The notes beneath the pieces were generated by a model. The model had not been told where the DNA came from. It did no database searches and was given only the letters and a program-made list of their open reading frames with translations. 64,000 nt of DNA from positions 107,322,001 through 107,386,000 of the forward strand of contig NC_135890.1 in NCBI RefSeq assembly GCF_964194155.1. Reading direction: 5' to 3'. Position numbers and translations under genes: made by a program. Origin of the DNA: Cetorhinus maximus. Lineage: Eukaryota. Of this stretch, positions 9,311 to 64,000 are shown piece after piece (positions within the stretch are counted from its first letter, which is position 1; each line of letters begins with the position of its first letter).

Positions 9311-9778
9311 TTAACCACCTCGTAGACGTAGCGTGAGGAAGATGGTGCTCTCAGGCTTAATATTGTAGTCGGCGAGTGTCAGACCATCCTCCAGCTGTTT
9401 CCCCTCGTACACCAGACGCTGCTGACTGGCTGGGACACCCTCCTGCCGTTGTACTCGTACTCTAAAATCCCGAACGGACTCAGAGGGAAGAACGTCATAT
9501 GTAGATGTTTTCCCCTTGTCGTTCCTGAGGAAAATCTGCATCCGCTCCTCGTTCTTGACAATCAGCATGACAGCATCGCTGGGAGAGACATTGTAGTCAC
9601 ACAGCCTCTTGTTGTCCTTCAGCTCCACAGTGCTCCTATTTTGCACCACCAGGCGCTGTTGGAAATAGGGCACATTGGCTTTTTTGTATATCATCATCTT
9701 GAGAGCCGAGATTTGGATGGAAGGGTCAACATCAAGCTCAATATCTTCACCGGTCAAAAACCTCACCTGGAGTCTCAT
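9311..9778 (-). CDS. ISG15: ISG15-like di-ubiquitin protein, 155 aa, intact (copy A)
   Basis: Two ubiquitin-like domains ([17 protein letters not shown]... and [11 protein letters not shown]...[20 protein letters not shown]) ending exactly LRLRGG-stop. Acceptor tctcttaacag lies 12 nt upstream of the ATG (exon starts at 9790), implying a 5'-UTR intron as in fish ISG15. Confidence 0.9.
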
Positions 9779-10208
9779 CTTGTCAAATTGCTGTTAAGAG
9801 ATGAACAGGATGTCAGGGATGAGGACACTTTATCTCATGTGTCAATTTAAAGAATTAATGAGAGAATTTAACATTCACGACACATTGTCACAGGCACTGG
9901 CTGAAAGCGCAGAAGCTGAGAAGTAACTGTTGTGTAAATCTCATCTACAATAATCCCAAAATCTGGCTTCCACATGATACCCGAATTGCCTAGAAACCAA
10001 TCTTCACAAACTCCTTCCTTCCATCCAGTTAAAAGCAGCAGATTCACAATCTGTTCTCCTGTCTGCATTTGGTTGTGTTTTTGCTGCTCTATGCTGATAT
10101 TGTTAAAATATTGAGAAACTTGAGGACCTGTGTACCACACTGCAATACTGGCAACGGCCTGAAGTAGCCCTCAGTGAGCTGTGTAACGTGGCACAGTCTG
10201 AGTTTGGC

Positions 10209-10280
10209 TGTCAGCTGTGGCTCAGTTCATAGCACCCTCGCCTTTGAATCAGAGGGTTGTGGGTTCATGTCCCACTCCCG
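10209..10280 (+). mobile_element. tRNA-derived SINE head fragment in the putative ISG15 intron
   Basis: A-box-like tggctcagtt and B-box-like ggttcatgtcc. Segment 10209..10346 is absent from unit C. Confidence 0.55.
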
Positions 10281-10823
10281 GAAACCAAAAACTGTGATTG
10301 TACTCGAACGAGTTGCAATCTGTGACTGTTGATAACTCGAAAGAGTTTCATGGGGAGATAAGAATATGGGCTTGGAAATTCTGTGGGTTTCTCTTGATCT
10401 TGCACCATAGCTTCAGCAATTCATCAATGGAGTCTAAGAGAATGGGTGTAAATGAAGGAAAATGACTGTAAGTTTCAGCACCATATTAGAGGAACCATTT
10501 GTATAACTCTCTAAACTAGAAGACAGGGCATCCCCAGTCCAGTGGTCAAAAAAAAGTACCCTATTGTTGAGTAGAATTTTCTCTTTTGATGCAAGTGGTC
10601 TATGAATGAAATCTGTACAGTTATGACAGACCAATCAGCAGAGAGTTATTCTGTACAGAAATGCTTCCTCTCAGATTCAGACTCACATAATGCATTCTAT
10701 TGAAAAACAAAAACTACTTTGCTGATATTAGATAATGAATGTTTAACGCATCACTTTAAATTTCCATATTTAAAATAGTAGACAAAGGAGTGGCACGTAA
10801 ACATGTTAAGTTGTTAAGGATAC

Positions 10824-11030
10824 CTGACAATCTTTCCCGGAAGCACAAGTCCAGGTGAATCAGAAGAAATTTGAGCTGCACAATGGGGAGAGATTCATTT
10901 CCCTGCACAGTTTGTTTTCTCTGTGTTTCTCCACACCGGCTCTCAATTCTAGTATAAGGGAATAAAATTCTGTCTGTATCTTGCTCCATCTCTTCTGTGT
11001 TTCCCACCGTTAAACAAGTGAGTGAGTGTC
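10824..11030 (-). other. ISG15: Putative non-coding first exon of ISG15 (5' end uncertain)
   Basis: Donor cag|gtatcc at 10824/10823 is retained in unit C although the adjacent intron sequence differs by an indel. An AT-rich TATA-like tract (11049-11060) and an ISRE-like site lie upstream. Confidence 0.35.
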
Positions 11031-11129
11031 TGGCTCCCTCCTCAGTCATTTTATTTTTATTGCTGGTTTCTGAACGTCACAGCCTTTTTGCCCTCTAATT
11101 GCTTCGAACAAACAAGTGAGACCAGAGCT

Positions 11130-11142
11130 GGTTTCATTTCCC
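11130..11142 (-). promoter_or_regulatory. ISRE-like element upstream of ISG15 (copy at 61410..61422)
   Basis: Minus strand gggaaatgaaacc. A second GAAA-repeat, ggaaagggaaag, lies at 11466-11477 and an NF-kB-like gggaaattacc at 11163-11173. Confidence 0.55.
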
Positions 11143-12080: not shown

Positions 12081-12129
12081 ATTACTGGCACTAAAGCCCT
12101 GAGGAAAATTGGAGCTGTAGTTTAAGTCT

Positions 12130-13222: not shown

Positions 13223-13280
13223 GAAATGAAACCGAAACCAAACAGTCAAAACAAGTCGTGATTCTGAGGAAATCGAAAAG
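13223..13280 (+). promoter_or_regulatory. ISRE cluster of the OASL copy A promoter
   Basis: gaaatgaaaccgaaacc (13223-13239, canonical GAAACCGAAAC core) and ggaaatcgaaaag (13268-13280), 220-270 bp upstream of the ATG. Confidence 0.8.
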
Positions 13281-13495
13281 GATTTGGTGTTTAATTGGGA
13301 TCATATACAAATAATTGAGCAAGGAAAAACTTTGAACCGGGTGGAGATATAGAACTGTGACGTGTATAATGTGTATTTGTTGAAAGGTTTTACTTTATAA
13401 GCCTGACTATATTGTTTGAATACTTGAAGCAACGGTTAGAGCTGTGGTTATAAGGAGCTGTAGTTATACCAACATCACTTTGTGTGAAAGCTGGA

Positions 13496-13669
13496 ATGAT
13501 GGAATTATACAGAACTGATCACAGGAGGTTGGACGATTTCATTAAAACTAACCTGGAGCCGAATGAATTTAATATCAATGTGAGGAAGGCTGTGCACAAA
13601 ATCTGTGACTTTTTAAGGAATCGATGTTTTCTCAAACAACCTGAGATCAAAGTAATCAGAGCCGTTAAA
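13496..13669 (+). CDS. OASL: OASL copy A exon 1 (58 aa)
   Basis: MMELYRT...LDDFIKTNLEP...FLRNRCF...AVK, then donor gtaagt. Equivalent to OAS exon A. Confidence 0.9.
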
Positions 13670-16600
13670 GTAAGTTATTTTATTTTTAAAGCAGCACATG
13701 GAATTAATAATGTTTACAATACTATTTACGATAACAGGAACTTTACCTTGCTTAAGTACGGAGATGTTTTCTGACGTGATTGTGAAGTTTCCTGTTTTCT
13801 GTGTTGTACTCCCTTCTCTCTAGAATATGTAAACTCGCTGTAGGACACAGTTTCAAGGGTGGCAGTTGCCTCCAGTATCTCAAATAAATTAATGGGATTA
13901 GGTGGGATCATCATCATTTCATGGGACGATCTCAAAATGATGTCGATTTGCCCTTTCAACGGCACAAATTTCCCGGAAAACCTGGATTAAAAGGGGATTA
14001 TTTGCCTAAAGGGACAGAATGTTTTTGACCTGCTTGTTTTAAAAGCTCAGCAGCTTTAGATGTTTATCTGTTAAAGGGAACATTTACTTCAAATCTGTTT
14101 CTCTTAAAAAACTACATTTGGATGAACTTTTATCAAATTATTAATTTTATCATGCTTTAAATATGCTCCTCAAAATCAATAACAGTCCCAATTCCTAAAG
14201 TCACAACACACTTGTAAAGCAATTTTAATTTTAAGGCAATAAAGAACTGGTGTGTTACCTAAAATACACATTTCATGTTATTTAGCAATAAATGAAACCC
14301 AAAAATTGGGGAAGAGAGGGAATTTCTCTTCTCCTCCCCACCACGCCCACTAATTCTGAGCACCCCCTCTATTCATCTGATCTTCAGTCAGCTGCAATAA
14401 CATCAATTTTCTCTTTAGGGGAGGGAAGCAGGAGTCGGGACTGTTACTTTATCCTGGGGCCAGAGGGATACCAGTCACTCTTTGGGATTTTGCCCAGAGT
14501 GCCCTTTTAATTGATATGGAGACAGGTCCCTCCTCCAGTTAAGAGCAGTGGGTGGGCTCTCGAAGCTGGAGGGGCAATCTGGGGCCTTTTAGCTTGAGAG
14601 GACCACCTGGCTATAGCAGAAGGTAAGTAGCTAAGAGGGTGCTTCAACATGGAGGTGCTCTTTCAGTAACCAATTGAAAAGTTTAGTCAAGAAGTATAGA
14701 AATGAGCCAGGCTGCCACTGTGGGGCTTTTGATGGAACGAGGGGGCGATTCGCTCTTTGGCTGCAATCGCACCAGGACACGGGTCGGGGGGAGGAGGGGG
14801 CCTGCCTGCTTAGGGCACTGCCCCCTCTCCCAGCCATTGGATGCCTGCCTCCAGGCAGTTGAACTGCCCTAGTCACATCAGGAAAGTGGAGACTGACTGG
14901 AATCTGAGTCAGCCTCTAATACCCACTGTTAACAAAGATCTTAATGAGTTGACCTAATTGACTTCTGGGTTGGGCATTTTAGCCGGGCTCCCAAACCCGC
15001 CTCCCCCAAAATGGCCAATATGGGAATGGTGTCTGGAAACCGGCTGCCGACCATTTTGAATTCAGCTCTGTCCCTGACTTCAGCAGGGCCTGAAAATTCA
15101 GTGCAGTGAGTCTGTCACATTTACTCTTGTACAAGGGATGGCAGAGAGAGCAGGTCACAGCTAAGTGGTAGTTAGTGGCTTCACTCTTGTTTAAGCTTTT
15201 TAAAAAGAAAACTGTCAAGAGATTTAGTTTGCAACTTATGATTTTATTGTCATACTTAAACAGAAAGTTGTTTGGCAGATTGTGACTTGGTAGCAACTCT
15301 GCCACTGGCTAAGAATAAAAATGCAAAGAATTACATTAATCCCCACAAAAAGATCACCAAATGGGGCAATACCACTCTGTTGATAACAGAGTTAAAATTG
15401 AGCACAAAGGCTAGACAAGAAGGGAACAATCAGCCCAGGTTTCCCAATCCTGTTCAGTGAGGAAAAGATTAGGCTGTGATGCCCCACATGGTTGAATAGC
15501 CTGTTGTCACCTGTGGTCCAAGATAACATATGAATAATGGCTAATGAGGGGAATTGCTGAAGTGGGCTTCTGGACCTCTGTCTCATTAAAGTGTCAGCAC
15601 CTTCACAAAAAGACGGCAAGAGGAGAAAAATCAGAAGGAAAATGGCAGTGAAAATTAAGCCTAAATCAAGAACACAGATAGTCTGCATGGCTTCAATAAC
15701 TCTTCCACATTTCAGTAATGGTAAGTTCACCAGTCATTGAAATAATCATAAATAATTGTCTATTTTCCCTCCTCCTCAGGGAGGGTCGTCAGGCAAAGGA
15801 ACAGCTTTAAGAAACGGTTCAGATGCGGATCTGGTTGTCTTCCTCAGTTGTTTCCAGAGTTTCCAGGAGCAGAGGAACACCAGGCATGAAATCCTTGAAG
15901 GAATCCAGCAAATGCTGGAAAAGTGTGCTTTGAGCATTGCCTATGAGATCAGTGATATCAGTATCAATGTTAAACCGAGCAGCAACAGCCCACCAAAATC
16001 GATGAGCTTTTCAATAAAATCAAAGAAGAAAGATTCAGACAGCGTGGATTTTGATATTTTGCCAACATTCGATGCATTAGGTAAGAATTGATGCGGTTAT
16101 TAAATCATTAAAGCTCAAGTTTAATTTTAGTTCTTCCAATAGCCTCTGCTGCCCATCAAGAAAAACAGTGGGTGTTATCAGCTTTGCTTTATCACATGTC
16201 CTGTTCCTAGTTAAGATGATGCCATAGTTGAGCTCTATATTTGGTTATTAGAGTTGTTGCTGAGGGAGAATATGTTGCTTTTTAAGTGGGACATTAGCCT
16301 AGGTTTAGGATTGACATTATTAACTGGCGTTAACAGTTTGGTATTATGATGCTGATGGAAAGTCTAGGATACAAACACTTTAACGTAAAGAAACAAAATC
16401 TAACCAGTAATGTTGATGTCTGAATTTATTTCATTTCCCCTCCTTTTCTAAAGCAAATAATTCAGTTCTTTAGTCACCAGAAGTACCTGGTACTTCTGTC
16501 AGCTGATCATTTTTCATACAAAAACAGGAGTGTCAGCAGCAACACAAAAATAAAATACTGTGGATGCTGAAAATCTGAAATAAAAGCAGAAAGTGCTGAA

Positions 16601-19600
16601 AATATTCATCGTGCCTAGCAGCGCCTGTGGAGAGAAACAGAGGCCTGGATTTCACCATGATGGAGGGCCTTTCCGCCATGGTGAAAATAGTGGACAAGCC
16701 CGGAAATAGGAAGTCCCACCCCCAAACACCACACTTTCCATTTTCGTGAGGTGGGAATGAAGTTGGGCTGGGGTTTGTGCATAGGTGGATTATGGACGCA
16801 GCTGGTGGTATAAATCACCAGCTGCCTCCACTGAAGTGGGATTTTGGTCAGCCGGGTGTGTGAAACCCAAAGTGTGTAGATTGGACCAGATGAGAGTAGG
16901 GCCCAGGTTTTTGCCCAGGGGTTGGGAGATTTCCTGGCTTGGCGAACCCAATCTTTAAAAGTGTCCGCCCGACAATCAGATTTTTGGTCAACAAATGGAG
17001 GTGAAGCTTAAATAGGAGTGACCCCAGAACAAGTGCAGTGGCTAGCGGGTGTAGAGGTGGGATGGGCGCAAGGCCTGAAAAACAAAACACATCCCTCCTA
17101 CCTCACCCCTTGCCCCCTCACCCTCCCTCACACACCATGTGCCTCGTCCATGCGAACGCATGCTCCTGTACACACACCCAATGCCTCTCCATACCCCCAT
17201 GCCAACTTAGTGTCAGCTCACTCCAACTCCTGCCCCCAACCCACCACCCTTTTCCTCTAACCCCCTTCAAGCCAACTCACTAAGAATCCATGGACAGTTC
17301 CTTGACAGCTTTGACAGCTGAACAGTTATTTGACAGACAGACAGTTCTTCAATAGTTCCTTGACAGCTGTACAGCTCTTTAACATTTATTTGCTAGCCGG
17401 ACAGTTCTTTAACAGCTGGACAGTCCTTTAACATTTATTTGACAGCCGGACAATTCTTTAAGAGTTTCTTGACAGCTGGACAGTTAAACATTTCTTTGAC
17501 ATCTGGACAGTTCCAAGGAGATTCTGTGTAAAAAGTGCGTAATCATGTTTATTTTAACGATGCTAAAGGCTACCTTACCTCTCCCAAAGGTGTCTCAAGA
17601 CTCTACACAAAGGGGTACCCTGACTATCCAAAGAATCCACCAAGTTCAGACCGCCTCTTACCTGGTCTGCTCTGCGCAGTTCGAGATTCCAGCAGCCAGA
17701 GTTCAAAAATCCCATTTCAGTGGAGGAACTGGTGATTTAAATGGCCAGCTGCTTCCACAAATCGCGCATGTGCAAAGCCTGGTCCCACTCCAGTCTCGCC
17801 CTCACGAAGATGGGAATTACTGGGTTCGGGGGCGGGACTTAGAAATCTCTGCCATTTTTGAGACTTTTGCCACGCCGGAGAAGCTCTCCAACCCGGGTGT
17901 GAAAATCCAGGCCAGAGTTAACATTTCAGGTCAACCTTTCATCAGAAATCTTCTTTCGGATCAGGCAAAAGTTAGAAGTGAAATAAGTTTAAAGCAAATC
18001 AAAGGGAGGAGGGTGGGAAAAAGAATAAAGGGGACAGTGTTTGAAAGGTAGGGGAGATTAGATGACAAATGTGTTGATAGTGAAAGGCCAAAAGGGAGTG
18101 GTATTTTGGACAAGTTATAAAAAAGATGTTTCTGCAGGAGGTGTCAATGGCAGTGTCATGAACAGCTGCCATCTGCAGACAAAAAAATGGAGAAAAACAG
18201 GAGAGAAAAAATAAAATCAGCAAAGAAAAAGGAAACAAATGGAGGCTGAGGTCACGATTTGAAGTTGTTAAACTCAATGTTGAATCCAGGAGAGTGTAGA
18301 GTGTCTGATTAAAAGATGAAATGCTGTTCCTCAAGCACACGCTGAGCCTCCAGTGTAGGAGGTCAGCGATAGAGGTCAGAGTGGGAGCATGGTCCAGAAT
18401 TACAATGACAGGTTTGGGGAAGTTTGGGGTTATCTTGCAGACTGAACAGAGATGTTCTGCAAAGTAGTCACCAAATCTGCATTTGGCTTCTCCAGTGTAA
18501 AGGAGGCAGGGACGACAGGAAACTAAATTGAGTAAATTAATGTTTCACCTGGAAGGAATCTTTGAGGCTTTGGACAGTTAGAAGGGAAGAGGTAAAAGGC
18601 CAGGCATTGTATCTGCTGTGATTGCATGGAAAGGTGCTGTGGGAAAGAGAGGGAGGTGCTAGCAGGGTGATTGAGGAGTGGACCAGGGTGTTGCGAAGGA
18701 ATTGGTCCTTCTCAAAAAGAAGGGAAGATGTTTTTAGGTGGCGGCATCATGCTGGAGGTGGTGAGAAAGGTGGAGGATGATCCATTGAAGAAAAAGGCTG
18801 GTGGGGTAGTAGGTGAGGACCAGTGGAACCCTATTGTGGTCCTGGAGAGAAAAGGAAGGGTTGAGAGGAATGTGTAAAATGGAACGGATATGGCACAACG
18901 GACTTAAAATGTAAGAGTGTTAAAGGATTACTTGGCCTGGAGAGTGGGGGCACCATACCCTGCTTACTTGTGATGACCACAAACACTTTCTGTTGCTCAT
19001 TAAGCATTTCATTTCTTACAGAGGGAACAGACAATGCCAATGAAGCCCACCTCAAGCTAATCAATTTAGTAAACGAAAATGGAGCTCTAGGTGGGGAATT
19101 TTCTTCCTGTTTTACTGAGCTTCAGAGAAACTTTGTGAAGCAGTGTAAACCAAAACTTAAAGACTTGATTCGCCTGCTGAAGTATTGGTACAATCAGGTA
19201 AGTGACTGGGGAACATGATAATTGTTAATACTTGGAGGTTATGGGAGGATTGTAACACTGAAAGACAGCTTCCCTCTGTGTCTCAAAGAACAAAGAACAA
19301 AGAAAAGTACAGCACAGTTACAGGCCCTTCGGCCCTCCAGGCCTGCGTCGATCATATTGCCCGTCAACTGAAACATTTTGCACTTCCGGGGTCCGTATCC
19401 CTCTATTCCCATCCTATTCATGTATTTGTCAAGCTGCCTCTTAAACACCACTATCGTACCTGCTTCCACCACCTCCTCTGGCAGCGAATTCCAGACACTC
19501 ACTACCCTATGTGTAAAAAACTTGCCCCGCACATCTCCTCTATAGTTTTCTCCTCTCACCTTAAATCAATGTCCCCTAGCAATTGACTCTTCCACCCTGG

Positions 19601-22600
19601 GAAAAAGCTTCTGACTATCTACTCTGTCCATGCCACTCATAATTTTGTAAACTTCTATCAAGTCGCCTCTCAATCTCTGTCGCTCTAGTGAGAACAATCC
19701 GAGTTTCTCCAACCTCTCCTCATAGTTAATAACCTCCAGACCAGGCAGCATCCTGGTAAACCTCCTCTGCACCCTCTCCAACCCCTCCATATCCTTCTGG
19801 TAATGTGGCGACCGGAATTGCACGCAATATTCCAAACGTGGCCTAACCAAGGATCTATACAGCTGCAGCATGACTTCCCAGCTTTTATACTCAACACCCC
19901 TGTTAATGAAGGCAAACATGCCATATGCCTTCCTGACTACCTTATCCACCTACGTTGCCACTTTCAGTGATCTGTGGACCTGTACACCCAGATCCCTCTG
20001 GCCGTCGATGCACTTAAGGGTTCTGCCATTTACTGTATAATTCCTGCCTGTATTAGGCCTTCCAAAATGCATTACCTCGCATTTGTCCGGATTAAACTCC
20101 ATCTGCAATTTCTCCGCCCAAGTCTCCAACCGATCTATATCCGGTTGTATCCTTTGACAATCCTCTTCACTATCTGCAACTCCTCCAACCTTAGTGTCGT
20201 CTGCAAACTTACTAATTAGCCCAGTTACATTTCCTCCAAAGCATTTATGTATACTACAAACAGCAAAGGTCCCAGCACTGATCCCTGCGGAACTCCACTA
20301 GTCACAGCTCTCCATTCAGAAAAGCACCCTTCCACTGCTACCCTCTGTCTTCTATGACCAAACCAATTCTGTATCCATCTTGCCAGCTCACCTCTGATCC
20401 CATGTGACTTTACCTTGTGTACCAGTCTGCCATGAGGGACCTTGTCAAAGGCCTTACTGAAATCCATGTATATAACATCCACTGCTCTTCCATCGTCAAT
20501 CATCTTTGTCACTTCCTCGAAAAACTCGATCAAGTTAGTGAGACACGACTTCCCCTTCACAGAACCATGCTGCCTCTCACCAATACGCCCATTTGCTTTC
20601 AAATGGTAGTAAATCCTGACACGAATAATCTTCTCCAATAATTTCCCTATCACTGACGTAAGGCTCACCGGCCTGTAATTTCCTGGATTATCCCTGCTAC
20701 CCTTCGTAAACAATTGAACAACATTGACCATTCTCCAGTCCTCTGGGACCTTACCCGTAGCCAGTGAGGATACAAAGATTTCTGTCAAGGCCCCAGCAAT
20801 CTCCTCCCTTGCCTCCCTCAGTACTCTGGGGTAGATCCCAACTGGCCCTGGGGACTTATCCACCTTAATATTCTTCAAGACGCCTAACACCTCCTCTTTT
20901 TTGATCTCAACATGATCCAGGCTATCTACACACTCTTCCCTAGACAAATCGACCGCTAAGTCCTTCTCTTTGGCGAATACTGATGAGAAGTACTCATTTA
21001 GTATCTCTCCCATTTCTTCTGGCTCCACACACAGATTGCCACCTCTGTCCCTGAGTGGGTCTACCCTTTCCCTGGCTACCCACTTGCTTTTTACATATGT
21101 ATAAAAGGCGTTGGGATTTTCCTTAATCCTGGTTGCCAGTGACTTTTCATGACCCCTTTTAGCCCTCCTGACTCCTTGCTTAAGTTTCTTCCTACTTTCT
21201 TTATATTCTCCACGGGCTTCATCTGTTCCTAGCCTTCTAGCCCTTACGAATGCTTCCCTTTTCTTTTTGACTAATCTCACAATATCCTTCGTTATCCAAT
21301 GTTCCTGAAACTTGTCATACTTATCCTTCATCCAAGCATCACCACATCCACCCACTCCATTGACAAATCCTACGGATGAATCTAGGGATCCCCCATATTA
21401 AAAACCAGCAACGAGTTGTCTGGGATGTTTGCATGGAGGGGGATTGAGAGAACCTTTGGAGAAATGTCCATTTGTGCTGTTTCTCCAGCACCTACACCAG
21501 TCTCTGCTGAATTTACAACAGGAGGTTAGCAGATCCCAGAGAAAGTCAGGCTCAGTATTTGGAATAACTCAAGATTCTTGCTTCCCCTCTGCTGGAATTT
21601 GACTTTAGTTGAAGCTGTTGGAATGAATTTGGACGAAGGGGAGAGCTCCTGTCAGCCTTCTGGTTTAGGCTGAACAAATATTAAAACCACTTCTTGATTC
21701 ACAGAAGAATTAAAGAGCAAATCCCCTGAACCCATATTCTGTGGAGGGGCTGTATTCAAGGGAAGTACAGATCAGAGATAGAGCTTCAACCCTTCAATTT
21801 GCACTTACTTCCAATAAGGCTCTACATTTAGAGTGAGGATCAGGGATTTTACCCTTAAATCTTTTACATTCCCTCAATTTTGTGCCTTAAAGTGACCGTC
21901 TCAAGTTATATAAACCTGCAAATGGCAAGTTTGACCAGCCCCCTATACAAAGCCAAAGGCTGTATTCAATTCTCCAGTGCCTGGGGCTCCAGAATGCAGG
22001 ACAAAAGACAAACAAATGCAAGTTAATTAATCGCTGAAGGAACAATTGAAAAACGATGAGGTGGAAATTGGTTCTCATGGTGCCAATTTTCCAAGTGGAA
22101 AATTGAGGCAAAAAATGACCAACTTCAACCAAAGGCGCCTGAAATATGACCGGTGCAATAAGGGTCTTGGACAATTTCCAGGTGTCCGGGCAACTGTCCG
22201 GAACAGGCATTATGCTCCTTGAATATGTTAATGCGGGATCTAATGCCTGTTTAACGAGGTTTACTGCAACTGGTCAGCGCTGAGTAGTCCCCTCAGATTT
22301 TTGCTTCCACGTGCAGCTTCTACATTAATACATTTTTATACTTCATGTAGTGGCAGGGTCTCCTCCCAGTGGTGCTCCCAACTTCACTGCTGCTAGCAGC
22401 CCACCATCACTCACCTCCCCACCCTCTCCCTATCTGATGGTCATTGCTGGAGAGGCAGCTGGCTGATCTTGGTCCTCATGGAACCTGTGAGCTGTTGTTT
22501 CATACTCGATTTGAGTCCGCATCTTCCCAGCAAATTTCTGATAATGTCCCGAGGTCTAATTTCAGTTGAGTCCCTGGCTTCTGGTGCACACTCCCAGCAT

Positions 22601-25600
22601 GCTGCCTACTTCAGGCAAGAAAATGGACCAAAATAAATTTCTACCCCAGTCACTTTCAGGTGAGATATTCAATGAAAGCCCTGCCTGCCTTCTCAGGTGA
22701 GCCTAAAAGATCCTATTGCACTCTCCAGGGAAGAGTAGGGTGTTTTGCTGGATATCTGGATAAAATTTAACCTCAACCAACATAATGAAAGACAGGCAAT
22801 CTAGCCATTTATCTCATTGTTGTTTGTGGGATCTTGCTGTGTGCAAATTGGTTGCTGCATTGCAACTTCAAAATACCTCATCTTGGGAAGTGCTTTGGGA
22901 AATTTTGAGGTTGTGAGAGGTGTTACGTACCTAATGCCAAGTACTTGCTTTCTTTTGAACTCTGACTCTCCAACGCACTATTCTGTAGGATCATGTCCAC
23001 AATTTGCCCATGGACAGTTTGTGTGCTCAGCCTTATCTTTGTGGAGAGATACTGAACGGAGATTTGGCATTTCATCCAAGAGAAGGAGAAAAAGTTGGAA
23101 TGAGGCCACTTTGGGCAGATCTTGTGGACTTCTTAGTGGATGCTGAGGTGGCAGCACTAGACTAGGTCTAGCTTCAACCAGTCCTATCAAGAAAGTTGCT
23201 TGGTTTCCGAAGAATGATGGAAGTAAAATATATGGAAGCAAAAATATAGGATGGAAGGAGGAGTGAGTACTTTTAATATCTTGTATATTTACATTTATCA
23301 ACCATTTGCTCTAGCATGTCAAGCCACGGGAATCCGAACTGAGACATGGCGATCGTCTTCCTGATAAGTATACAGTAGAGCTGCTGGCTATCTATGCCTG
23401 GGAGCAAGGCAATGGGCAGGAGAGATTCAGCACAGCTGAAGGATTCCGGACAGTCCTTGAACTGATCTGCAGATATCAGGATCTGTGCATCTACTGGACT
23501 CAGAACTACAACGTCGAGAATAGAGTCATTGCAGACTTTCTAATAAAGAAACTCAGTGGCAAGAGGTAATCTTCAATTACATTTAAAACTAAAGCAATTA
23601 GAGCTGATTCACTTCTTTGAACATTTCCCAATTAAGGGGGCTGATTCAGGGCGTTTTTAGGGTCTGGTTCAGTTGGTCTTTAATATCCATCCCTAACTTT
23701 GGCGTCATGGGGTGTCGAATAAGTGACATGTTGGCTGCATCATTTGAATGTGATGAATGTGCAGCTGAATGTTTAGAGTGAGAGTGAATCCAACACATTG
23801 TTCTTTGTGAAAATGTGCCCAAGAGGCAACAGTTTTCATAACGTTACACGCGCCCGCACCTGAACTTCCCCCACACTGGGTGGGGTTGGGGGGGCGGGGG
23901 TGGAATTCTTCCCCAGGTATCTTAAGATATTTACAATCTTTAAACTGCTATAAAAATACAAATTAATACAATTAACATCATAATGTAATTACAGAGGAGG
24001 AAGGGTATATTATTGATCTTAGGTCACCGATACGGAATTGAACCAGTGATATGGTTCCAGAGAAAGGGATCAGAGCCTCTTCCTGGCCCAAACAAGGCCA
24101 CTGAAGAAGCTGAGGCTGAGGTTAAGGACTCCCTATGCTGGGATTTCATGTATCCTTGAGTTTAAGGGGAGCCAGCATGAGTTTTCACATCAATATACAG
24201 AGCGAGAAGAAGTGGGCTGGTTTCCTTTTGAATGGAAGAAGATATGAGGCACAGTTTATCATCCTTTGGGAGTAGACCACTTGGTGATATTCTGGACAAC
24301 AATCACCAGCCCTGATTGACCAACATCACCTTGTTTTGCGCTGTCTGGATCAGGTGCCTGATTGGGACACTAGTGGCAGGATTTTGCCCTCATCAGGTGG
24401 GCTCAGCAGGGGCGAGCGGAAGCAGTTGGGAAGCCGACCACTGTCCGCGATTGGGGCCGGACCGTAATTTTAATCTGGCGGGCCAATTAAGGGGAGGAGG
24501 GCGAGAGTGCAAGTTCGAGCAAGTGTGTGTAGGAAAAGCTCCCTGAGGCACAGAGCTGCCTCAGGGGGATGAAGTTATGAAAAATTACAAATAAAGCATT
24601 TTACGATGTTAAGAAACATGTCCTCTCATGTGGCTCTGTCACATCAGTAAGGACATGTTAGAAATTAGTGTGATCATTTTTTTATAATGACGGATCGAAA
24701 CCTCCTCCCTTTCGTGGATGAGGTTTCGCAAAAAATGCAAAGGCCGCTTTGGGCGTAAAGGCTGAGCTGAGAGATGGGACAGAAATTTCCCCCCGTTGGA
24801 GTTGTGGGGGGGTTGTGTAGGGGCGGGTGGGGGCACAAAACCAATTGGTTTATGTGAGTGGCCCAATTAAGGCCCGCCCAGCGTGACGTGCGCCAGGAAG
24901 CACTGAGCGCTCCCTGTGCGGGCGTTGGGGGGGCGATTCCCTGAGTCAGGGCTGCACGCAAAAGAGCACAGAAATCTCCCAGTGGCATGGAGCTGCCTCA
25001 GGGAGATTAAGTTCGAATTGAAAGTTTTTATTTGAGATAGAGAAAAATTTTTCAGACATGTCCACTCATGTGACAGTGTTACATGAGCTTGGACATATTT
25101 ATTAAGTGTTTGAAAATGTTTTATTGAATTAATAAATCCTTCATGAAACCTCATCCTGCCCGTGGATGAGGGTTCATGATAAATGCGAAGGCCGCATTCT
25201 TAACAACTTTAATTACTTTCTTAATGGCCTTAATAGGCCTTTGAGAGTTTGGTGGGCGTGCAGCTGATGCGGCTGTGCGTCCGCCGAACTGAAGATCTAA
25301 ATGATGCGCGGTGACATCGGGACGCCCGCCCGACGTCACCACACATCATTTTACGCGTCAGGCAAGCGGGCATCGCCCCCACTCACCGACCCGAAAATTC
25401 TTCCCATAGTGATGGCTTCCTGCTAAGTACAGAGTTGAGCTGCTGGCTATCTATGCCTGCGAGTAAGGCAATAGGCAGGAGAGAGTCAGCACAGCTGAAG
25501 GGCCCCAGCCAGTCCTTGAACTGATCTGCAGATATCAGCATCTGTGTACCTCCTGGACCAAGTAGGTGACCACCTGAACGCCAAACGTAAGGTTGGACAG

Positions 25601-27489
25601 GCAGCAAAAGATTTAAATCAATTAGATTGTTAATGGCCTTAATAGGCCTGTTAATTGTCGGTGGGCGCACAGCCAATTCCTGCACGTGCCCACCGCAAAT
25701 ATCATGCATCATTTTATGCTCGTTCAGGTCGGGTGACAAACGAGAATTCCTGCCCTAACTTTCTGTGGAGAGTTTAACTTATAAATAAACACAAATATAG
25801 CAATTCCTTCAAATACACAAGTTGGCTGACAGTGAAACTACCGACAGAACAGCGCCAATCATCCAGCAATTTATGCTGATTCCAAACTCATGGGGTTTCT
25901 CTTTCCCAGCGTGAATTGCTGGGTGATTTCCACAATAATAACAATGAGCGCCATTAAACTTGTCATTATTTTGCCAGCAAACCCCGGCCTATGGTTAATA
26001 ATTGTTTTTGGAACGGTTTTCTTTTTCAGGCCAATAATTCTTGACCCAGCTGACCCAACTGGAAATGTGGCTTTTTCTACTGGATGGTATGTCATGGTGG
26101 ATGAGGCTAATAAATGTCTGAGCATGCCATGTGTCTCTCACGTTCGAGCATGGGACGTCCAGGTAAAACGGTTTTAATAAATCATAAAGTTTTGATACAA
26201 AACAGTGTAAAATGTAGAAATTTTGTAGATTGTGTTGTTCAATCTAGGTGTTCCATCTGTCCAGAATACATAGAACCATAGGACTTAGGAGCAGGATTTG
26301 AAATTAGCTCTCAGACGCAAAGGATCATGTTCTCATTGGGGAGAATTTTCGACGAAGTCACCACCAGTCATTTTACGTGTTGGCGAGCGGGGCCCGCCCC
26401 CTCACGCTGACCCGAAGATTCAGGCCATTAATTACCTCAATCCTCCTTTGGAAACTTCATTCTTTAAAGCAAGCTGGAAATGATAGACCAGTTGCCGGGA
26501 TTTAAAGATATATATAGAGAGTCACATTAATCAGAAGCTCCCCAGGTTCAATTCTCAGTCCATACAGAGCTAGAGGATATCAACGAGGTGAAGGTGGGAG
26601 TGCTACAATTCACCTCAACACCGCTGTGGTCAAGTTGAGGAAAGAATCAGCTGGGATTCCCGCTGACCACATATTATATGTGGACAGAAATTTTTTCTCG
26701 GTTGGTGGGCGCGTGCCTGACCCGCTCAAGCATGAAATGACGCATGAGACCTTTGGCCAAATGTGCCGGGGTCAACGCGCAGTTGCGCAATATTTCGGCC
26801 AACGGGTGTGCACTGGAGCCAAAGTTCGCCCGCCGGCAATTAAGACCATTAAGTAATTAATTAACATAAATTTTTCACCGCCTGCCCAACCTAATGGCTG
26901 GCGGGCAGGCAAAAAGGCCAAGCGGCCTTTGCATTTTTTTTGGAAACCTTATCCACAGGCGGACGAGTTTTCCAAGAGCAAATAAAAATAAAATAAAATC
27001 TTTAATTTTTAATTAACAACATGTCCCTGCTTATGTGGTAGAATCACACGAGGGGACATGTTTCAGTACATTTTTAATTTTTATAATTATTTTCTTTCAT
27101 ATCTCTTACAGCTGCCTCAGGGATATTATGCAGCATTCACTCCCGCGCATTCGTGAAGTTCACACCCTTCCTGATCACTCTCCTTCCCCCCCCCCCTCAC
27201 ACAGGCAGCGTTCTTTGATGCAAGGCTCCATCTGGTCATCACAACGTCAATGCAGATATTCATCAGGACTGTAAATGGGCGTGACCTGACACTTGATGTA
27301 TCCCCAACTGACAAGGTTTTGAGCCTGAGAAATAAGATTGAATCTCTGGAGCGCCTTTCATCGAACCAATACTACCTGACCTATGGATCGATACCATTAG
27401 AAGACGGCCGCACACTGGAATCCTACGGCATTAAGCAACATTCCACCATCACCATCAACTTGCGTCTCCGTGGAGGCAAGGAGACTTGA
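13496..27489 (+). CDS. OASL: OASL copy A: OAS domain intact, UBL1 deleted, UBL2 retained (439 aa if the cryptic acceptor at 27204 is used; otherwise truncated or a pseudogene)
   Basis: Exons 13496-13669, 15780-16080, 19022-19197, 23315-23565 and 26030-26162 are all GT-AG with phases 0,1,0,2,0 joining in frame. Remnant last exon 27205?-27489. Motifs GGSSGKGT, SDADLVVF, FDILP, CFTELQRNF, YTVELL.IYAWE, RPIILDPADPT. Confidence 0.85.
15780..16080 (+). CDS. OASL: OASL copy A exon 2 (P-loop and catalytic Asp triad)
   Basis: cctcag|GGSSGKGT..SDADL..DFDILPTFDAL|gtaag. Confidence 0.93.
16642..17913. mobile_element. Non-autonomous TIR element (Harbinger-like) nested in a Penelope end (copy at 41598..42879)
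   Basis: TIRs ggcctggatttcac / gtgaaaatccaggcc with 3-bp TSD aga. Contains an internal degenerate ttgacagctggacagttc minisatellite at ~17290..17515. Confidence 0.75.
17914..18880 (-). mobile_element. Penelope-like retroelement 3' remnant with hammerhead-like motif (copy at ~42880..43840)
   Basis: NRVPLVLTYYPTSL...FPCNHSRYNAWPFTSSLLTVQ...SFQVK remnant. Minus-strand ctgatga-aaggttgacct-gaaatgtt at 17915-17950. Confidence 0.7.
19022..19197 (+). CDS. OASL: OASL copy A exon 3
   Basis: ttacag|...GEFSSCFTELQRNFVK...LKDLIRLLKYWYNQ|gtaagt. Confidence 0.92.
19285..21343 (-). mobile_element. Young 5'-truncated CR1 LINE insertion, present only in unit A
   Basis: RT motifs YMDFSKAFDKVPH and GVPQGSVLGPLLF; FADDTK follows a frameshift near 20230. 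8-bp (aaagaac)n-type tail at 19285-19304. Empty site at ~44240 in unit B. Confidence 0.93.
23315..23565 (+). CDS. OASL: OASL copy A exon 4 (not in the ORF track)
   Basis: ctctag|HVKPRESELRHGDRLPDKYTVELLAIYAWEQG...FRTVLELI...CIYWTQNY...KKLSGK|gtaat. Confidence 0.92.
24762..25560 (+). pseudogene. Degenerate duplicate of OASL exon 4 inside intron 4, split by a MITE (copy A)
   Basis: 24762-24776 plus 25409-25560 align to exon 4 (cttcctgctaagtacagagttgagctgctggctatctatgcc...). No flanking splice sites; contains an internal stop. Confidence 0.85.
24777..25405. mobile_element. MITE insertion, present only in unit A
   Basis: TIRs ggacagaaattt / aaaattcttccc with TSD atg/ata. Empty site at 47527-47530. 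Confidence 0.8.
26030..26162 (+). CDS. OASL: OASL copy A exon 5
   Basis: tttcag|RPIILDPADPTGNVA...AWDVQ|gtaaaa. Confidence 0.92.
27205..27489 (+). CDS. OASL: OASL copy A remnant last exon: end of UBL1 plus complete UBL2
   Basis: AAFFDARLHLVITTS-MQIFIRTVNG...LRLRGGKET*. The 5' boundary relies on a cryptic acceptor. Confidence 0.65.
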   Translation, partial: AAFFDARLHLVITTSMQIFIRTVNGRDLTLDVSPTDKVLSLRNKIESLERLSSNQYYLTYGSIPLEDGRTLESYGIKQHSTITINLRLRGGKET

Positions 27490-38459: not shown

Positions 38460-38633
38460 ATGATGGAATTATACAGCACTGATCACAAGAGGTTGGACGA
38501 ATTCATTAAAACTAACCTGGAGCCGAATGAATTTAATATCAATGTGAGGAATGCTGTGCACAGAATCTGTGACTTTTTAAGGAATCGATGTTTTCTCAAA
38601 CAACCTGAGATCAAAGTAATCAGAGCCGTTAAA
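38460..38633 (+). CDS. OASL: OASL copy B exon 1
   Basis: MMELYST...AVK|gtaagt. Confidence 0.9.
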
Positions 38634-59462: not shown

Positions 59463-60044
59463 CTAACTGCAGCTGAGAAAACAGGAGTATATGAAAAAAT
59501 TGATCAATTGAGGCACTATAAATAATTTACTTCTGTAATAGCTAGAGTTCATCGTATAAACCGCTGCAAGTGCAGGTAAACCACCTCGTAGACGTAGCAT
59601 GAGGAAGATGGTGCTCTCAGACTGAATATTGTAGTCGGCGAGTGACCGACCATCCTCCAGCTGTTTCCCCTCGCAAACCAGACGCTGCTGACTGGCTGGG
59701 ACACCCTCCTGCCGTTGTACTCGTGCTCTAAAATCCTCAACGGACTCAGAGGGACGGACGTCATATGTAGATCTTTTCCCCTTGTCGTTCCTGGGGAAAA
59801 TCTGCATCCGCTCCTCGTTCTTGACAAACAGCATGACAGCATCGCTGGGAGAGACATTGTAGTCACACAGCCTCTTGTTGTCCTTCAGCTCCACAGTGCT
59901 CCCATTTTGCACCACCAGGCGCTGTTGGAAATAGGGCACATTGGCTTTTTTGTATATCATCATCTTGAGAGCTGAGATTTGGATGGAAGGGTCAACATCA
60001 AGTTCAATATCTTCACCGGTCAAAAACCTCACCTGGAGTCTCAT
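59463..60044 (-). CDS. ISG15: ISG15-like copy C with stop-loss and 38-aa C-terminal extension (possibly an incipient pseudogene)
   Basis: Near-identical to 9311..9778. The codon after LRLRGG is TTA (59577-59579) instead of TAA. Carries L84P and Y124C relative to copy A. Confidence 0.85.
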
Positions 60045-63000
60045 CTTGTCAAATTGCTGTTAAGAGATGAACAGGATGTCAGTGATGGGGAAACTTTAAA
60101 TCACGAGTCAATTTAAAGAATTCATGAGAGAATTTAACAGGCACGACACATTATCACAGTCACTGGCTGAAATCTCATCTACAATAATCCCAAAATCTGG
60201 CTTCCTACATGATACCTGAATCGCCTAGAAACCAATCTTCACAAACTCCTTCCTTCCAGCCAGTTAAAAGCAGCAGATTCACAATCTGTTCTCCTGTCTG
60301 CATTTGGTTGTGTTTTTGTTGCTCTATGCTGATATTGTTAAAATATCCAGAATCCTGAGGGCCTGTGTACCACACTGCAATACTGGCAACGGCCTGAAGT
60401 AGCCCTCAGTGAGCTGTGTAATGTGGCACAGTCTGAGTTTGGCTTCATGGGGAGATAAGAACATGGGCTTGGCAGTTCTGAGTTTCTCTTGATCTTGCAC
60501 CATAGCTTCAGCAATTCATCAGTGGAGTCTAAGAGAATGGGTGTAAATGAAGGAAAATGGCTGTAAGTTTCAGCATCATATTAGAGGAACCATTTGTATA
60601 ACTCTCTAAACCAGAAGACAGGGCACCCCTAGTCCAGTGGTCAAAAAAAAAGTACCCTATTGTTGAGTAGAATTTTCTCTTTTGATGCCAGTGGTCTATG
60701 AATGAAATATGTACAGTTATGACAGACCAATCAGCAGAGAGTTATTCTGTACAGAAATGCTTCCTTTCAGATTCAGACTTACATAATTCATTCTATTGAA
60801 AAACAAGAAACTACTTTGCTGATATTAGATAATGAATGTTTAACGCATTACTTTAAATTTCCATCTTTAAAATAGCAGACAAAGGGGTGGCACATAAACA
60901 TGTTAAGTTGTTATCGCCTTGTATTGTCTTCAATAACTCACAGGCTATGCTTTTTAAATTATCCTGACCCAGTTCAGAGAATATTAAGAACTTATTTTTA
61001 ATTGTGAGTTTCATTGAGATTCAAAATGACTTATTTTAAAACCCAGAATTAGAATATTGAAATTCCTAAATAAAAGACAGGATACCTGACAATCTTTGCC
61101 GGAAGCACAAGTCCAGGCGAATCTGAAGAAATTTGAGCTGCACAATGGGGACAGATTCACTTCCCTGCACTGTTTGTTTTCTCTGTGTTTCTCCACACCG
61201 GCTCTCCAATCTAGTATAAGGGAATGAAATCCTGTCTGTATCTTGCTCTGTCTCTTCTGTGTTTCCCACCGTTAATCAAGTGAGTGAGTGTCTGGCTCCC
61301 TCCTCAGTCCTTTTATTATTATTGCTGGTTTCTGAACATTATAGCCTTGTTGCCCTCTATTTGCTTACACACTGCCGCACTGTCAGAACAAACAAGTGAG
61401 ACCAGAGCTGGTTTCATTTCCCAAAGCCTCCCCTCAGAGTCTGGGAAATTACCTGACAGGAGCAGCAGGAATGAACCTTGCTACAGGTAACAGGTACTGA
61501 ATTCCGAGTTATCTCAGTTTCCGATTCCTCTCTGGTGCCACAGTCATAAACAACAAGAACAGAATCAGCTGAACGGTGAGTCAGAGGCCTCACTGCCTGT
61601 TTGAAGCTGTGGGCAGGGCTTGAACAATACAATGTATAAAGATACAGGGCATCAGACCAGTCAGTTTAATTATCTAATGAAAAGAAATTGGCCTCAAATT
61701 GCAGGGGTCCTGCTCCACGAGTACAAGTCAGGTAGAGCAAAACCCCTTTCCCTTTCCAAACACAAGGCCAAGGGGTTAATGTCACTTCCATGTCGGCGGT
61801 CGATACTCAGAAAGTGTAAGAGTGCTTTAGTGGACAGATCCATCCTAACCTTTGCTTTGTTTATAATATCTGAAATCCCTCTGTGACTATTCTCACATGA
61901 TCCTTTTTGCTGCTACTGTGGACTCGAGCTTCTCTGCCTCCCATGTTCCTTTGCTGCCCCAGGTAAGAAGTACAAGGTTTGTGACATGCAAACCATCTCC
62001 ACCAATCAATACATTTTGATTGCCTTTTTCTAAAAGAAAACTTAATATTTTGTCAAATCCCACATGTGCACACCCCGGTTGAATTACATTTCATCCTCAG
62101 ACCCTTCCTCTAGCATCGACATGGTGCATCCTGTGTGACTTCAGCCGAGGTAGAGACAGTCTGTTCAGATCGGTGTTGGAAATTTTTGGTCAGCTTTGCA
62201 TTAACACTGATCCTCCAGCTGAACACCACTCCACTACTCGTGTTCTTATGGGGGTTCCAACCTGTATCTTACCCTCTCCTCCTCCAACAATGGAAACAGC
62301 AGCATAGCCATATCACAGCCATATCACAGCCATTACACAGCCATTACACAGCCATATCACAGCCATATCACATTACTGGCGCTAAGGCCCTGAGGAAAAT
62401 TGGAGCTGTAGTTAAAGTCTCAAGTTGTTAAAACCAAAGGGCTACATTGTGCCTGAATGAAATGTTGTTCCTCAACCTTATGTTGGGCATTGGAATGCTT
62501 TAGACGGCCAAAGACAGAGTGGTCAGAGTGTGTGTGGAAATGGAATAGAATGGCAAGTGACAGGGAGTTTGGTGTTACATTTGTCAGTAGAATAGAGGCG
62601 TTCAGCAAAGCGATTGGCCAATCTGCTGCTGGTTTCCCTAATGCAGAGGAGGCTGCACCATAAGCAGACATCGCTGTGTATTAGGTTGGAGGAAGTACAT
62701 GTGAATTGCTGTCTCACACAGAAAAAGTGTTTAGGGATTGAACTGTGGTGATTGAGGAAGTGAAAGGCTATTTGTTACATCTTTTGAACTTGCATGGGAA
62801 GATGCCAGGGGAAGGCAAATACATGATAGGAGTGATGGAAGAGTGAAGCAGAATGTAATAGAGGGAACAGTCCCATTGTGGCACGGGGAGGGGAGGGGTT
62901 GGGAAGTTGTGTTTGGTGCTGGGTTCGCTTGGAGTGGTCAGAAATGACAGAAGGTGATCAATTGACTGAGGTCAGGCAAGGCTCAGCTTTGGTGCCCACT

Positions 63001-63234
63001 GATCATCAGCGTCAAACCTAAGTTCATGATGACCTGGAGGACTGGTGGCATCCCAGACTGACAGAGGAATAGGGCACAAAATAAAAAAATAAAGGGAAGA
63101 CAGATGGAAATGTAGATCCAGATAATTCAATACTGTGGTTGCTGTTATCTTCTGAAGGCAGGCATGTCATCAACACAGTGGGAGGTATATAAGGAGCTGT
63201 GGTTACACCAACATCACTTTGTGTGAAAGCTGGA

Positions 63235-63408
63235 ATGATGGAATTATACAGCACTGAGCACAGAAGGTTGGACGATTTCATTAAAAATAACCTGGAGCCG
63301 AATGAATTTAATATCAATGTGAGGAAGGCTGTGCACAGAATCTGTGACTTTTTAAGGAATCGATGTTTTCGCGAACAACCTGAGATCAAAGTAATCAGAG
63401 CCGTTAAA
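63235..63408 (+). CDS. OASL: OASL copy C exon 1 (gene continues beyond the window)
   Basis: MMELYSTEHRRLDDFIKNNLEP...AVK|gtaagt. Confidence 0.88.
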
Positions 63409-64000
63409 GTAAGTTATTTTATTTTTAAAGCAGCACATGGAATTAATAATGTTTACAATACTATTTACAATATCAGAAACTTTACCTTGCTTAAGTACAG
63501 AGATGTTTTCTGACGTGATTGTGAAGTTTCCTGTTTTCTGTGTTGTACTCCCTTCTCTCTAGAATATGTAAACTTGCTGTAGGACACAGTTTCAAGGGTG
63601 GCAGTTGCCTCCAGTGTCTCAACTAAATTAATGGGATTAGGTGGGATCATCATCATTTCATGGGACGATCTCAAAATGATGTCGATTTGCCCTTACAACG
63701 GCACAAATTTCGCGGAAAACCTGGATCAAAAGGGGATTTTTTTTGCCTAAAGGGACAGAATGTTTTTGACCTGCTTGTTTTAAAAGCTCAGCAGCTTTAG
63801 CTGTTTTTCTGTTAAAGGGAACATTTACTTCAAATCTGTTTCTCTTAAAAAATTACATTTGGATGAACTTTTATCAAAGGTGCAGCATGCTTAAAATATG
63901 CTCCTCAAAATCAATAACAGTCCCAATTCCTAAAGTCACAACACACTTGTAAAGCAATTCTAATTTTAAGACAATAAAGAACTGGTGTGTTACCTGAAAT

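What the first reader, a model, noticed from the sequence alone, without database searches (positions are those of the whole stretch)
9311..64000. Head-to-head ISG15-OASL antiviral module, amplified in tandem and remodelled differently in every copy
Seen: an ISG15-like gene (minus) and an OASL gene (plus) point away from each other, ~3.7 kb ATG to ATG, each with ISRE-like sites. The pair is the repeating unit of the array. The window opens in sequence matching the OASL 3' flank, so a fourth unit upstream is likely. Copy A has intact ISG15 and a 1-UBL OASL; B has no ISG15 and a 2-UBL OASL; C has a tailed ISG15 and an ISRE-less OASL. Known: human ISG15 and OASL are on different chromosomes, birds lack ISG15, and teleosts lack OAS genes. 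Inference: a linked, co-induced cassette of two LRLRGG-bearing interferon effectors under birth-and-death evolution, possibly an ancestral jawed-vertebrate arrangement. I do not know of a description of it, but cannot search the literature.
Basis: partly seen in the sequence, partly recalled or inferred. Interest (0 to 1): 0.88.

Follow-up and report, generated by a model that had tools for sequence, protein, structure and literature searches.

The report
Shark ISG15–OAS antiviral gene cluster
In this shark genome, 19 copies of the antiviral tag gene ISG15 sit directly beside 8 copies of the RNA-sensing enzyme gene OAS, two genes that lie on different chromosomes in humans; the linkage is likely ancient in jawed vertebrates and could explain how OAS enzymes got their ubiquitin-like tails.

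Summary
The genes and coordinates are real, but the window shows only part of a 350-kb locus: POLE–P2RX2–[16 ISG15 genes in a 21-kb tandem repeat, no OAS]–[8 OAS-UBL genes with 3 more ISG15 copies]. The head-to-head pair is the junction of two arrays, copied when the OAS array grew. It is not kept as a unit: 1 of 4 pairs has an intact ISG15, both C-type OAS genes are frameshifted, and each gene has its own ISRE-like site. The linkage itself looks old. ISG15-like and OAS proteins share a chromosome-scale contig in 12 of 12 other sharks and rays, with near-consecutive RefSeq numbers in 5 of 10. A coelacanth OAS model and a squamate-type OAS model both end in an ISG15-type domain, in same-strand order, so orientation is not conserved. 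A second shark OAS lineage ends in UBL plus a CaaX motif, and one copy swapped that exon for the di-UBL exon. Ten paper searches found no description of the linkage. Cross-species adjacency rests on proxies; co-induction is untested.

The parts
1..8706 (.). Spacer of the repeat unit: 3' flank of the OAS gene just upstream of the window (a chimera whose di-UBL exon ends at G000:C12:107,321,465)
   Evidence: 95% to 28027-36766 and 92-93% to 50865-58886; upstream gene
9311..9778 (-). ISG15 copy A (type I), intact 155-aa di-UBL ending LRLRGG; whole CDS in exon 2
10824..11034 (-). Non-coding exon 1 of ISG15 (intron 9791-10823); 5' end approximate
   Evidence: joint 9790-10824 with CT..AC ends in RNA-like contigs of two related organisms, runs X18 and X20
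11131..11141 (-). IRF/ISRE-like site with one-base spacer, about 100 bp upstream of ISG15 exon 1; present in 11 of 11 type I copies
13223..13282 (+). OAS copy A promoter: triple-GAAA ISRE (13223-13238) and a second ISRE core near 13272
13496..26162 (+). OAS-UBL copy A, exons 1-5 (13496-13669, 15780-16080, 19022-19197, 23315-23565, 26030-26162); open frame, P-loop and three catalytic Asp intact
   Evidence: joint 13669-15780 GT..AG in run X18
19287..21348 (-). LINE-type retrotransposon insertion in intron 3, absent from copy B
   Evidence: gap; RVT_1 in ORF 20225-21397
27205..27489 (+). Remnant last exon of copy A (end of UBL1 plus UBL2, LRLRGGKET); usable only through a predicted cryptic in-frame acceptor
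   Evidence: 720-bp deletion relative to B 49328-50048; model; splicing untested
36766..36816 (.). Deletion junction in copy B that removed ISG15 and its promoter
38188..38203 (+). OAS copy B ISRE, retained
38460..50326 (+). OAS-UBL copy B, six exons (38460-38633, 40736-41036, 43977-44152, 46212-46462, 48145-48277, 49853-50326), 502 aa, two UBLs, LRLRGGKET
   Evidence: public 502-aa model P0140 is 100% identical in every exon
59463..60044 (-). ISG15 copy C, stop codon lost (TAA to TTA), LRLRGG followed by a 38-aa tail
61411..61421 (-). IRF/ISRE-like site of ISG15 copy C
63188..63408 (+). OAS copy C: 554-bp promoter deletion at 63188 and exon 1 (63235-63408); the gene continues past the window, lacks exon 3 and is a likely pseudogene

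Best explanation
The window is part of a shark gene cluster in which an ISG15 array (minus strand) abuts an OAS-UBL array (plus strand); the head-to-head pair is the junction between them and was likely copied as a passenger when the OAS array expanded, while the ISG15-OAS linkage itself is likely inherited from early jawed vertebrates. Shown in sequence: the layout, the deletions, a 66-kb block duplication, and a 3-bp-microhomology junction that put the di-UBL exon behind a second OAS type whose own last exon is UBL plus CaaX. Inferred function: interferon would induce each gene through its own ISRE; ISG15 would be conjugated through LRLRGG; the OAS enzymes, with intact catalytic residues, would make 2-5A on double-stranded RNA for RNase L; the last exon would act as an address tag (di-UBL for conjugation after trimming KET, CaaX for membrane anchoring). 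Inferred history: tandem duplication and unequal crossover amplify both arrays, and linkage lets last exons move between neighbours.
For: Layout: 19 ISG15-like and 8 OAS genes at G000:C12:107.07-107.42 Mb, no N in 664 kb. Passenger reading: intact ISG15 in 15 of 16 array copies but 1 of 4 paired copies (ATA start, two read-through tails); B-type units drop ISG15 and keep the OAS ISRE, C-type units do the reverse; transcribed ends lie at least 1.9 kb apart. ISG15 identity: the top 16 VIA-align rows are all ISG15 (Z 17.2-19.5); Foldseek TM 0.66-0.82 to ISG15 against 0.44-0.54 to di-ubiquitin and 0.52 to chicken OASL; human ISG15 103.7 bits against chicken OASL tail 88.1. Enzyme activity with RNase L was shown for chimaera and coelacanth OAS in yeast (PMC10400998, passages).
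Against: No second genome was read directly: contig length and accession order are proxies, and 5 of 10 species had distant numbers (70 to about 43,500). No contig from related organisms spans the pair. The coelacanth and squamate cases are single gene models that may join two neighbouring genes; only 2 lineages (3 models) of 58 UBL-bearing OAS proteins show a clear ISG15-type tail. The AU test against monophyly of OAS tails is borderline (p 0.030 and 0.055). No chimaera, teleost or amphibian ISG15 was retrieved. The N-terminal domain alone does not separate ISG15 (38.6 bits) from ubiquitin (37-40) or chicken OASL (39.5). The ESM Atlas margin over a ubiquitin D cluster is small (0.95 against 0.93). 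RNase L and UBA7 were not identified in G000.
Confidence: 0.7

Rival explanations
1. The head-to-head pair is a selected, co-regulated cassette with shared interferon-responsive enhancers, and it is the functional unit being amplified.
For: Four head-to-head pairs exist; both genes carry ISRE-like sites within a 2-kb interval in copy A; both are spliced in RNA-like contigs of run X18.
Against: Only 1 of 4 pairs keeps an intact ISG15, and its OAS has lost its normal last-exon acceptor; 16 ISG15 copies repeat without OAS; deletions separate the promoters; the non-shark examples are same-strand.
Confidence: 0.12
2. The linkage is a cartilaginous-fish novelty from a translocation, and the ISG15-like OAS tails of coelacanth and the squamate reflect slow evolution of a shared ancestral di-UBL or independent exon capture from an unlinked gene.
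For: The shark locus has neither the human ISG15 neighbour (AGRN on C15) nor the human OASL neighbours (HNF1 and SPPL3-type genes at C12:80 Mb, 27 Mb away); the coelacanth tail scores 85.2 bits with chicken OASL and no ISG15 passed the 1e-21 cut-off; PMC10400998 (section 5) reads squamate OAS UBLs as recent independent gains.
Against: The squamate tail is a clear amniote ISG15 behind a low-quality linker, which is how a model joining two neighbours looks; two separate lineages show the same order.
Confidence: 0.15
3. Much of the copy number is an assembly artefact from haplotypes placed in tandem.
For: The 66-kb block is 98.96% identical and neighbouring 21-kb units are 97-98% identical; no long reads or depth were examined.
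Against: No gaps; copies carry distinct indels and a clean microhomology junction; multi-copy ISG15 and OAS models occur in other sharks and rays. It would change counts, not the linkage.
Confidence: 0.08

Closest known systems
Mammalian and teleost ISG15
   Same: Two beta-grasp domains, C-terminal LRLRGG, ISG15-like domain arrangement in the predicted model, CDS in exon 2, ISRE-type promoter sites.
   Different: 19 copies of two types; no pro-peptide in 16 copies; lies between P2RX2 and OAS, not near AGRN; public annotation calls them polyubiquitin-like.
OASa.U proteins of jawed vertebrates, including chimaera and coelacanth OAS (PMC10400998)
   Same: NTase-OAS1_C-UBL architecture, birth-and-death evolution, gene conversion and fusion (section 5 and passages).
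   Different: That paper has 0 mentions of ISG15, synteny, CaaX or prenylation in its main text (supplements not seen). Here: linkage to ISG15, two ancient cartilaginous-fish lineages with different last exons, and last-exon swaps.
Avian OASL with an ISG15-like, conjugatable tandem UBL (PMC8764230)
   Same: Catalytically intact OAS with di-UBL, LRLRGG and a short tail needing trimming (abstract passage, introduction and passages).
   Different: Birds lack free ISG15; the shark has both, side by side. The paper has 0 mentions of shark, synteny or chromosome.
Human OAS1 p46, prenylated isoform (recalled, no call)
   Same: OAS with a C-terminal CaaX motif, predicted membrane anchor.
   Different: The shark D-type gene has one divergent UBL before the CaaX and is a separate paralogue; homology of the tails was not tested.

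Membership tests
ISG15 | Two tandem ubiquitin-like domains, about 155 aa | tested here: met
   Pfam ubiquitin x2; model pLDDT 86.5
ISG15 | C-terminal LRLRGG | tested here: met
   19 of 19 copies encode it; terminal in 17, internal in 2
ISG15 | ISG15-type arrangement of the two domains | tested here: met
   Predicted model only: top 16 VIA rows ISG15; TM 0.66-0.82 against 0.44-0.54 for di-ubiquitin
ISG15 | Two-exon gene with the coding sequence in exon 2 | tested here: met
   Intron 9791-10823 spliced in RNA-like contigs of two related organisms
ISG15 | ISRE in the promoter | tested here: inconclusive
   Canonical cores in 8 of 8 type II copies; a one-base-spacer site in 11 of 11 type I copies; motif match only
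ISG15 | Induction by interferon and conjugation to proteins | not testable with these tools
   Needs stimulation and ISGylation assays
ISG15 | Dedicated E1 (UBA7) in the genome | tested here: inconclusive
   Three E1 loci; one second, diverged UBA1-like locus on C6 (76 bits UBA1, 41.5 UBA7)
ISG15 | Phylogenetic grouping with amniote ISG15 | tested here: inconclusive
   Groups with a squamate ISG15-type tail at only 87/80; no mammalian or teleost sequence was available for the tree
Polyubiquitin | Near-identical ubiquitin repeats | tested here: not met
   C-domain about 55% to ubiquitin, N-domain 37 bits; whole protein 43-46% to polyubiquitins
FAT10 / ubiquitin D | Closer to FAT10 than to ISG15 | tested here: inconclusive
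   ESM 0.93 for a ubiquitin D cluster against 0.95 for ISG15; that FAT10 does not end in LRLRGG is recalled
OASL / OASa.U | NTase plus OAS1_C plus C-terminal UBL | tested here: met
OASL / OASa.U | Catalytic Asp triad and P-loop (active type, as in birds) | tested here: met
   Motifs intact in all 5 own-species models examined; activity not assayed
OASL / OASa.U | One-to-one orthology with mammalian OASL | tested here: inconclusive
   Two cartilaginous-fish clades, deep branches weak; the name OASL holds by architecture only
Bidirectional (head-to-head) gene pair | Transcription starts within about 1 kb, shared promoter (definition recalled) | tested here: inconclusive
   Transcribed ends at least 1.9 kb apart, but contigs cannot show starts; deletions separate the two promoters

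The most novel reading that the evidence does not exclude
ISG15 and the OAS di-UBL exon arose from one another at a single ancestral jawed-vertebrate locus on the chromosome that became human 12q24. There, OAS enzymes repeatedly exchange their last exon among three address tags (OAS di-UBL, ISG15 itself, UBL-CaaX). Mammalian ISG15 later moved away, the coelacanth OAS is a true OAS-ISG15 fusion, and membrane-anchored OAS is as old as jawed vertebrates.
Probability: 0.35. Interest if true: 0.82.

Novelty: new variant of a known kind. Interest (0 to 1): 0.64.

Why it matters
ISG15 and OASL are studied as unlinked genes, and the source of OASL's ISG15-like tail is open: PMC10400998 dates the UBL gain without naming a donor, and PMC8764230 notes the structural likeness in birds. 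An ancestral linkage supplies a donor and a mechanism, and it is testable by reading a few public genomes. It also suggests that some reported squamate OAS UBL gains are neighbouring ISG15 genes, that shark ISG15 arrays are hidden under the label polyubiquitin-like, and that CaaX-ended OAS reaches back to chimaeras. The genes and their functions are of known kinds; the novelty is evolutionary.

Tried and rejected
Paper searches (10 of 10): ISG15+OASL+synteny+shark, 0 papers; ISG15+OASL+cartilaginous fish, 1 unrelated (24); searches listed none describing the linkage or a shark CaaX OAS. Most subscription papers are not in the library. The zebrafish ISG15 paper and the bird defence-gene review were not held, so teleost and bird synteny is unchecked. 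Supplements were not read and may bear on PMC10400998's squamate clade. Earlier scan findings: nothing relevant. No RNA holder on record was listed for this stretch; runs X18 and X20 are RNA by guess only. No contig spans ISG15 to OAS in runs X5, X11, X18 or X20. A region search with the ISG15 N-domain returned only 12 shark proteins. FAT10 was not among the listed fold matches, which does not exclude it. I first guessed that the neighbouring P2X gene was P2RX7 or P2RX4, as beside human OASL; the exon matches P2RX2 best (51.5 against 40 bits) and POLE lies next, so the guess was dropped. An AUTS2-family gene lies 11 Mb away. The E1_UFD search rang nowhere. The 2-5A ribonuclease family gave two loci, not named. 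Of 881 unique downstream ORFs, 119 were scanned, plus 2 others; 8 of 121 had a family; the SKICH exon had no PDB match. Ten partial or redundant OAS units were dropped before the tree, which is the quick tree. dN/dS among ISG15 copies was 0.20-0.40 in four of six comparisons, 0.69 and 1.09 in the others; too few changes to conclude. No complex prediction was run, as no binding is claimed.
Full report
Observation. The window is three diverged copies of a 23-28-kb unit at 91-97% identity. Copy A has a 155-aa di-UBL ORF ending LRLRGG at 9311-9778 (-) and an OAS gene starting at 13496 (+), 3,718 bp apart. Copy B lost 3.1 kb holding the di-UBL gene and has a complete six-exon OAS with two UBLs. Copy C has a read-through di-UBL gene and a 554-bp deletion of the OAS promoter elements.

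Setting. The window is G000:C12:107,322,001-107,386,000 of a 3.99-Gb genome. The closest proteins are from sharks and rays; public models on a contig of the same length are labelled Cetorhinus maximus. I held 664 kb around the window, without any N. The order is POLE (106.88-106.90 Mb), P2RX2 (106.98-107.02 Mb), 16 ISG15-like genes on the minus strand in a 21.4-kb repeat carrying two alternating types and no OAS, then 8 OAS genes on the plus strand with 3 more ISG15 copies among them. Of 36 matches, the 19 at 79% identity or more all lie here; 28 of 29 OAS1_C matches lie here. AGRN is on C15; HNF1 and SPPL3-type genes are at C12:80 Mb. The human positions of these neighbours are recalled.

The pair is a junction. 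The last ISG15 of the array faces the first OAS gene at 9.8 kb; the same sequence without a 6-kb insert is copy A's interval. Four such pairs exist. Their ISG15 genes are: start codon ATA, read-through, intact (copy A), read-through. In the OAS-free array 15 of 16 are intact. Of the 8 OAS genes, 5 have complete frames with a normal last exon, copy A has lost its last-exon acceptor, and both C-type genes lack exon 3 and stop at codon 166. A 66-kb block is duplicated at 98.96%. B-type units keep the OAS ISRE without ISG15; C-type units keep the ISG15 site without the OAS ISRE. RNA-like contigs of two related organisms splice 9790-10824 (both runs) and 13669-15780 (one run) and leave at least 1.9 kb between transcribed ends. 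I read this as two separately promoted genes whose junction was carried along by duplication.

Is it ISG15? The AlphaFold model (pLDDT 86.5, pTM 0.57) matches ISG15 over both domains: the top 16 VIA-align rows are ISG15; Foldseek TM is 0.66-0.82 for ISG15, 0.44-0.54 for di-ubiquitin, 0.52 for chicken OASL, although di-ubiquitin ranks first by E-value. By sequence, human ISG15 scores 103.7 bits and the chicken OASL tail 88.1; the shark OAS tail scores 68.8 and 73.7. ESM Atlas lists a chordate polyubiquitin-like cluster (0.96), ISG15 (0.95) and ubiquitin D (0.93). The N-domain alone does not discriminate. ISG15 is the best reading; strict orthology was not shown by a full tree.

Other sharks and rays. 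ISG15-like and OAS proteins carry the same chromosome-scale contig length in 12 of 12 other species where both were listed with one; Rhincodon (unplaced contigs) and species with only one of the two were left out. For 10 species I had accession numbers for both. Five are within 13 numbers: Stegostoma 1, Hemitrygon 1, Heptranchias 2, Mobula birostris 2, Hypanus 13. The own-species control is 7 apart. Five are distant: Heterodontus 70, Hemiscyllium about 590, Chiloscyllium punctatum about 1,050, Mustelus about 1,240, Scyliorhinus canicula about 43,500. That RefSeq numbers follow position within batches is my recalled knowledge; Hemitrygon has OAS models both 1 and about 1,200 numbers away, so distance is not evidence against adjacency. 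Orientation is not shown.

Beyond cartilaginous fish. Among 180 OAS-containing proteins held, 58 had a UBL and 6 were flagged as ISG15-best, 3 of them clearly. P0307, identical to the coelacanth record P0181 over its first 337 residues, ends in a di-UBL 53-55% identical to shark ISG15, 34% to the shark OAS tail and 41% to di-ubiquitin. It groups with shark ISG15 at 99/97 and 97/93; holding all OAS tails together is rejected at p 0.030 under LG+G4 and not quite (0.055) under a mixture model. Against PDB, however, its best non-ubiquitin match at the cut-off used is chicken OASL. P0336 has an OAS core inside a gecko-containing clade (99/99), a low-quality linker, and a tail matching human ISG15 (92.9 bits) far better than chicken OASL (61.4). 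Whether true fusions or models joining neighbours, both imply an ISG15-type exon directly downstream of OAS on the same strand. The linkage therefore looks older than the shark-bony vertebrate split; the head-to-head orientation does not.

Two OAS types and last-exon swaps. The terminal OAS gene (107,406-107,421 kb), about 50% identical to A and B, ends in one divergent UBL and a CaaX motif and has an ISRE 2.6 kb upstream. In a quick tree of 101 OAS units, cartilaginous fish form a di-UBL clade (SH-aLRT 100) and a CaaX clade (99), each including the chimaera. A Cys at position -4 occurs in 26 of 139 OAS proteins, from chimaera, sharks, rays, caecilian, turtles and geckos. The gene just upstream of the window joins exons 1-5 of the CaaX type to the di-UBL exon at a 3-bp microhomology; public models of Stegostoma and Amblyraja show the same combination, unverified in DNA.

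Mechanism. Shown: layout, lesions, junctions, intact catalytic motifs, splicing in relatives. From the literature: chimaera and coelacanth OAS act with RNase L in yeast, the UBL form is ancestral, and the family evolves by birth and death (PMC10400998; section 5 and passages); chicken OASL conjugates through LRLRGG after trimming, and birds lack ISG15 (PMC8764230; introduction and passages); the OAS-RNase L module is lost in the fish branch while isg15 is an ancestral ISG (10.1101/693333; passages). PMC6307210 and PMC6002735 (passages) add nothing on linkage. Inferred: interferon induction, conjugation, 2-5A synthesis, prenylation, and the order of duplications.

Verdict. Known genes in an arrangement that ten searches of the held library did not find described. 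The cassette reading is weakened; the ancestral-linkage reading is strengthened but rests on proxies. New variant of a known kind, interest 0.64.

Noticed in passing
L032:4393-4650 (G000:C12:107,420,393-107,420,650): Last exon of the terminal OAS gene: one divergent UBL ending in a CaaX motif; CaaX-type ends recur in 26 of 139 OAS proteins from chimaera to reptiles. Likely a prenylated OAS lineage as old as jawed vertebrates.
   Followed up: partly
L001:7660-7700 (G000:C12:107,319,680): 3-bp microhomology junction joining exons 1-5 of the CaaX-type OAS to the di-UBL exon; open 502-aa frame.
   Followed up: yes
L010-L025 (G000:C12:107,074-107,232 kb): ISG15-only array of two alternating types, 86% identical in the N-domain and 94% in the C-domain at DNA level, suggesting conversion or constraint on the conjugating half. 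A white shark model joins the two types in the same order (P0291).
   Followed up: partly
window 25416-25562 and 47511-47684: Partial duplicate of OAS exon 4 inside intron 4; broken in A and C, open for 58 codons in B-type genes.
   Followed up: no
proteins P0221, P0282, P0288: Stingray OAS models with a single UBL (441 aa), parallel to the predicted 439-aa product of copy A.
   Followed up: no
proteins P0002, P0244, P0272: Three-UBL ISG15-like models (231-237 aa) in a ray and two sharks; may be real tri-UBL proteins or joined models.
   Followed up: no
public models P0121-P0126, P0261, P0269, P0271: Many 'OAS2/OAS3-like' shark models of 900-2,400 aa join neighbouring genes; in G000 the joined units are separate genes with stop codons.
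   Followed up: partly
L036:4422-4739: ANAPC16-like open frame covering 60 of 80 profile positions, possibly a retrocopy.
   Followed up: no
L051:244-561: SKICH-domain exon on the minus strand, probably the next gene downstream; INPP5J is a guess.
   Followed up: partly
L028:9473-9991: 173-aa open frame between P2RX2 and the ISG15 array with no Pfam family.
   Followed up: partly
G000:C2:65,179,423-65,179,632: Single weak OAS1_C match outside the cluster, possibly an OASb-type gene.
   Followed up: no
L063, L066, L067 (G000:C6:12.15-12.19 Mb): Second, diverged UBA1-like E1 gene; candidate shark UBA7.
   Followed up: partly
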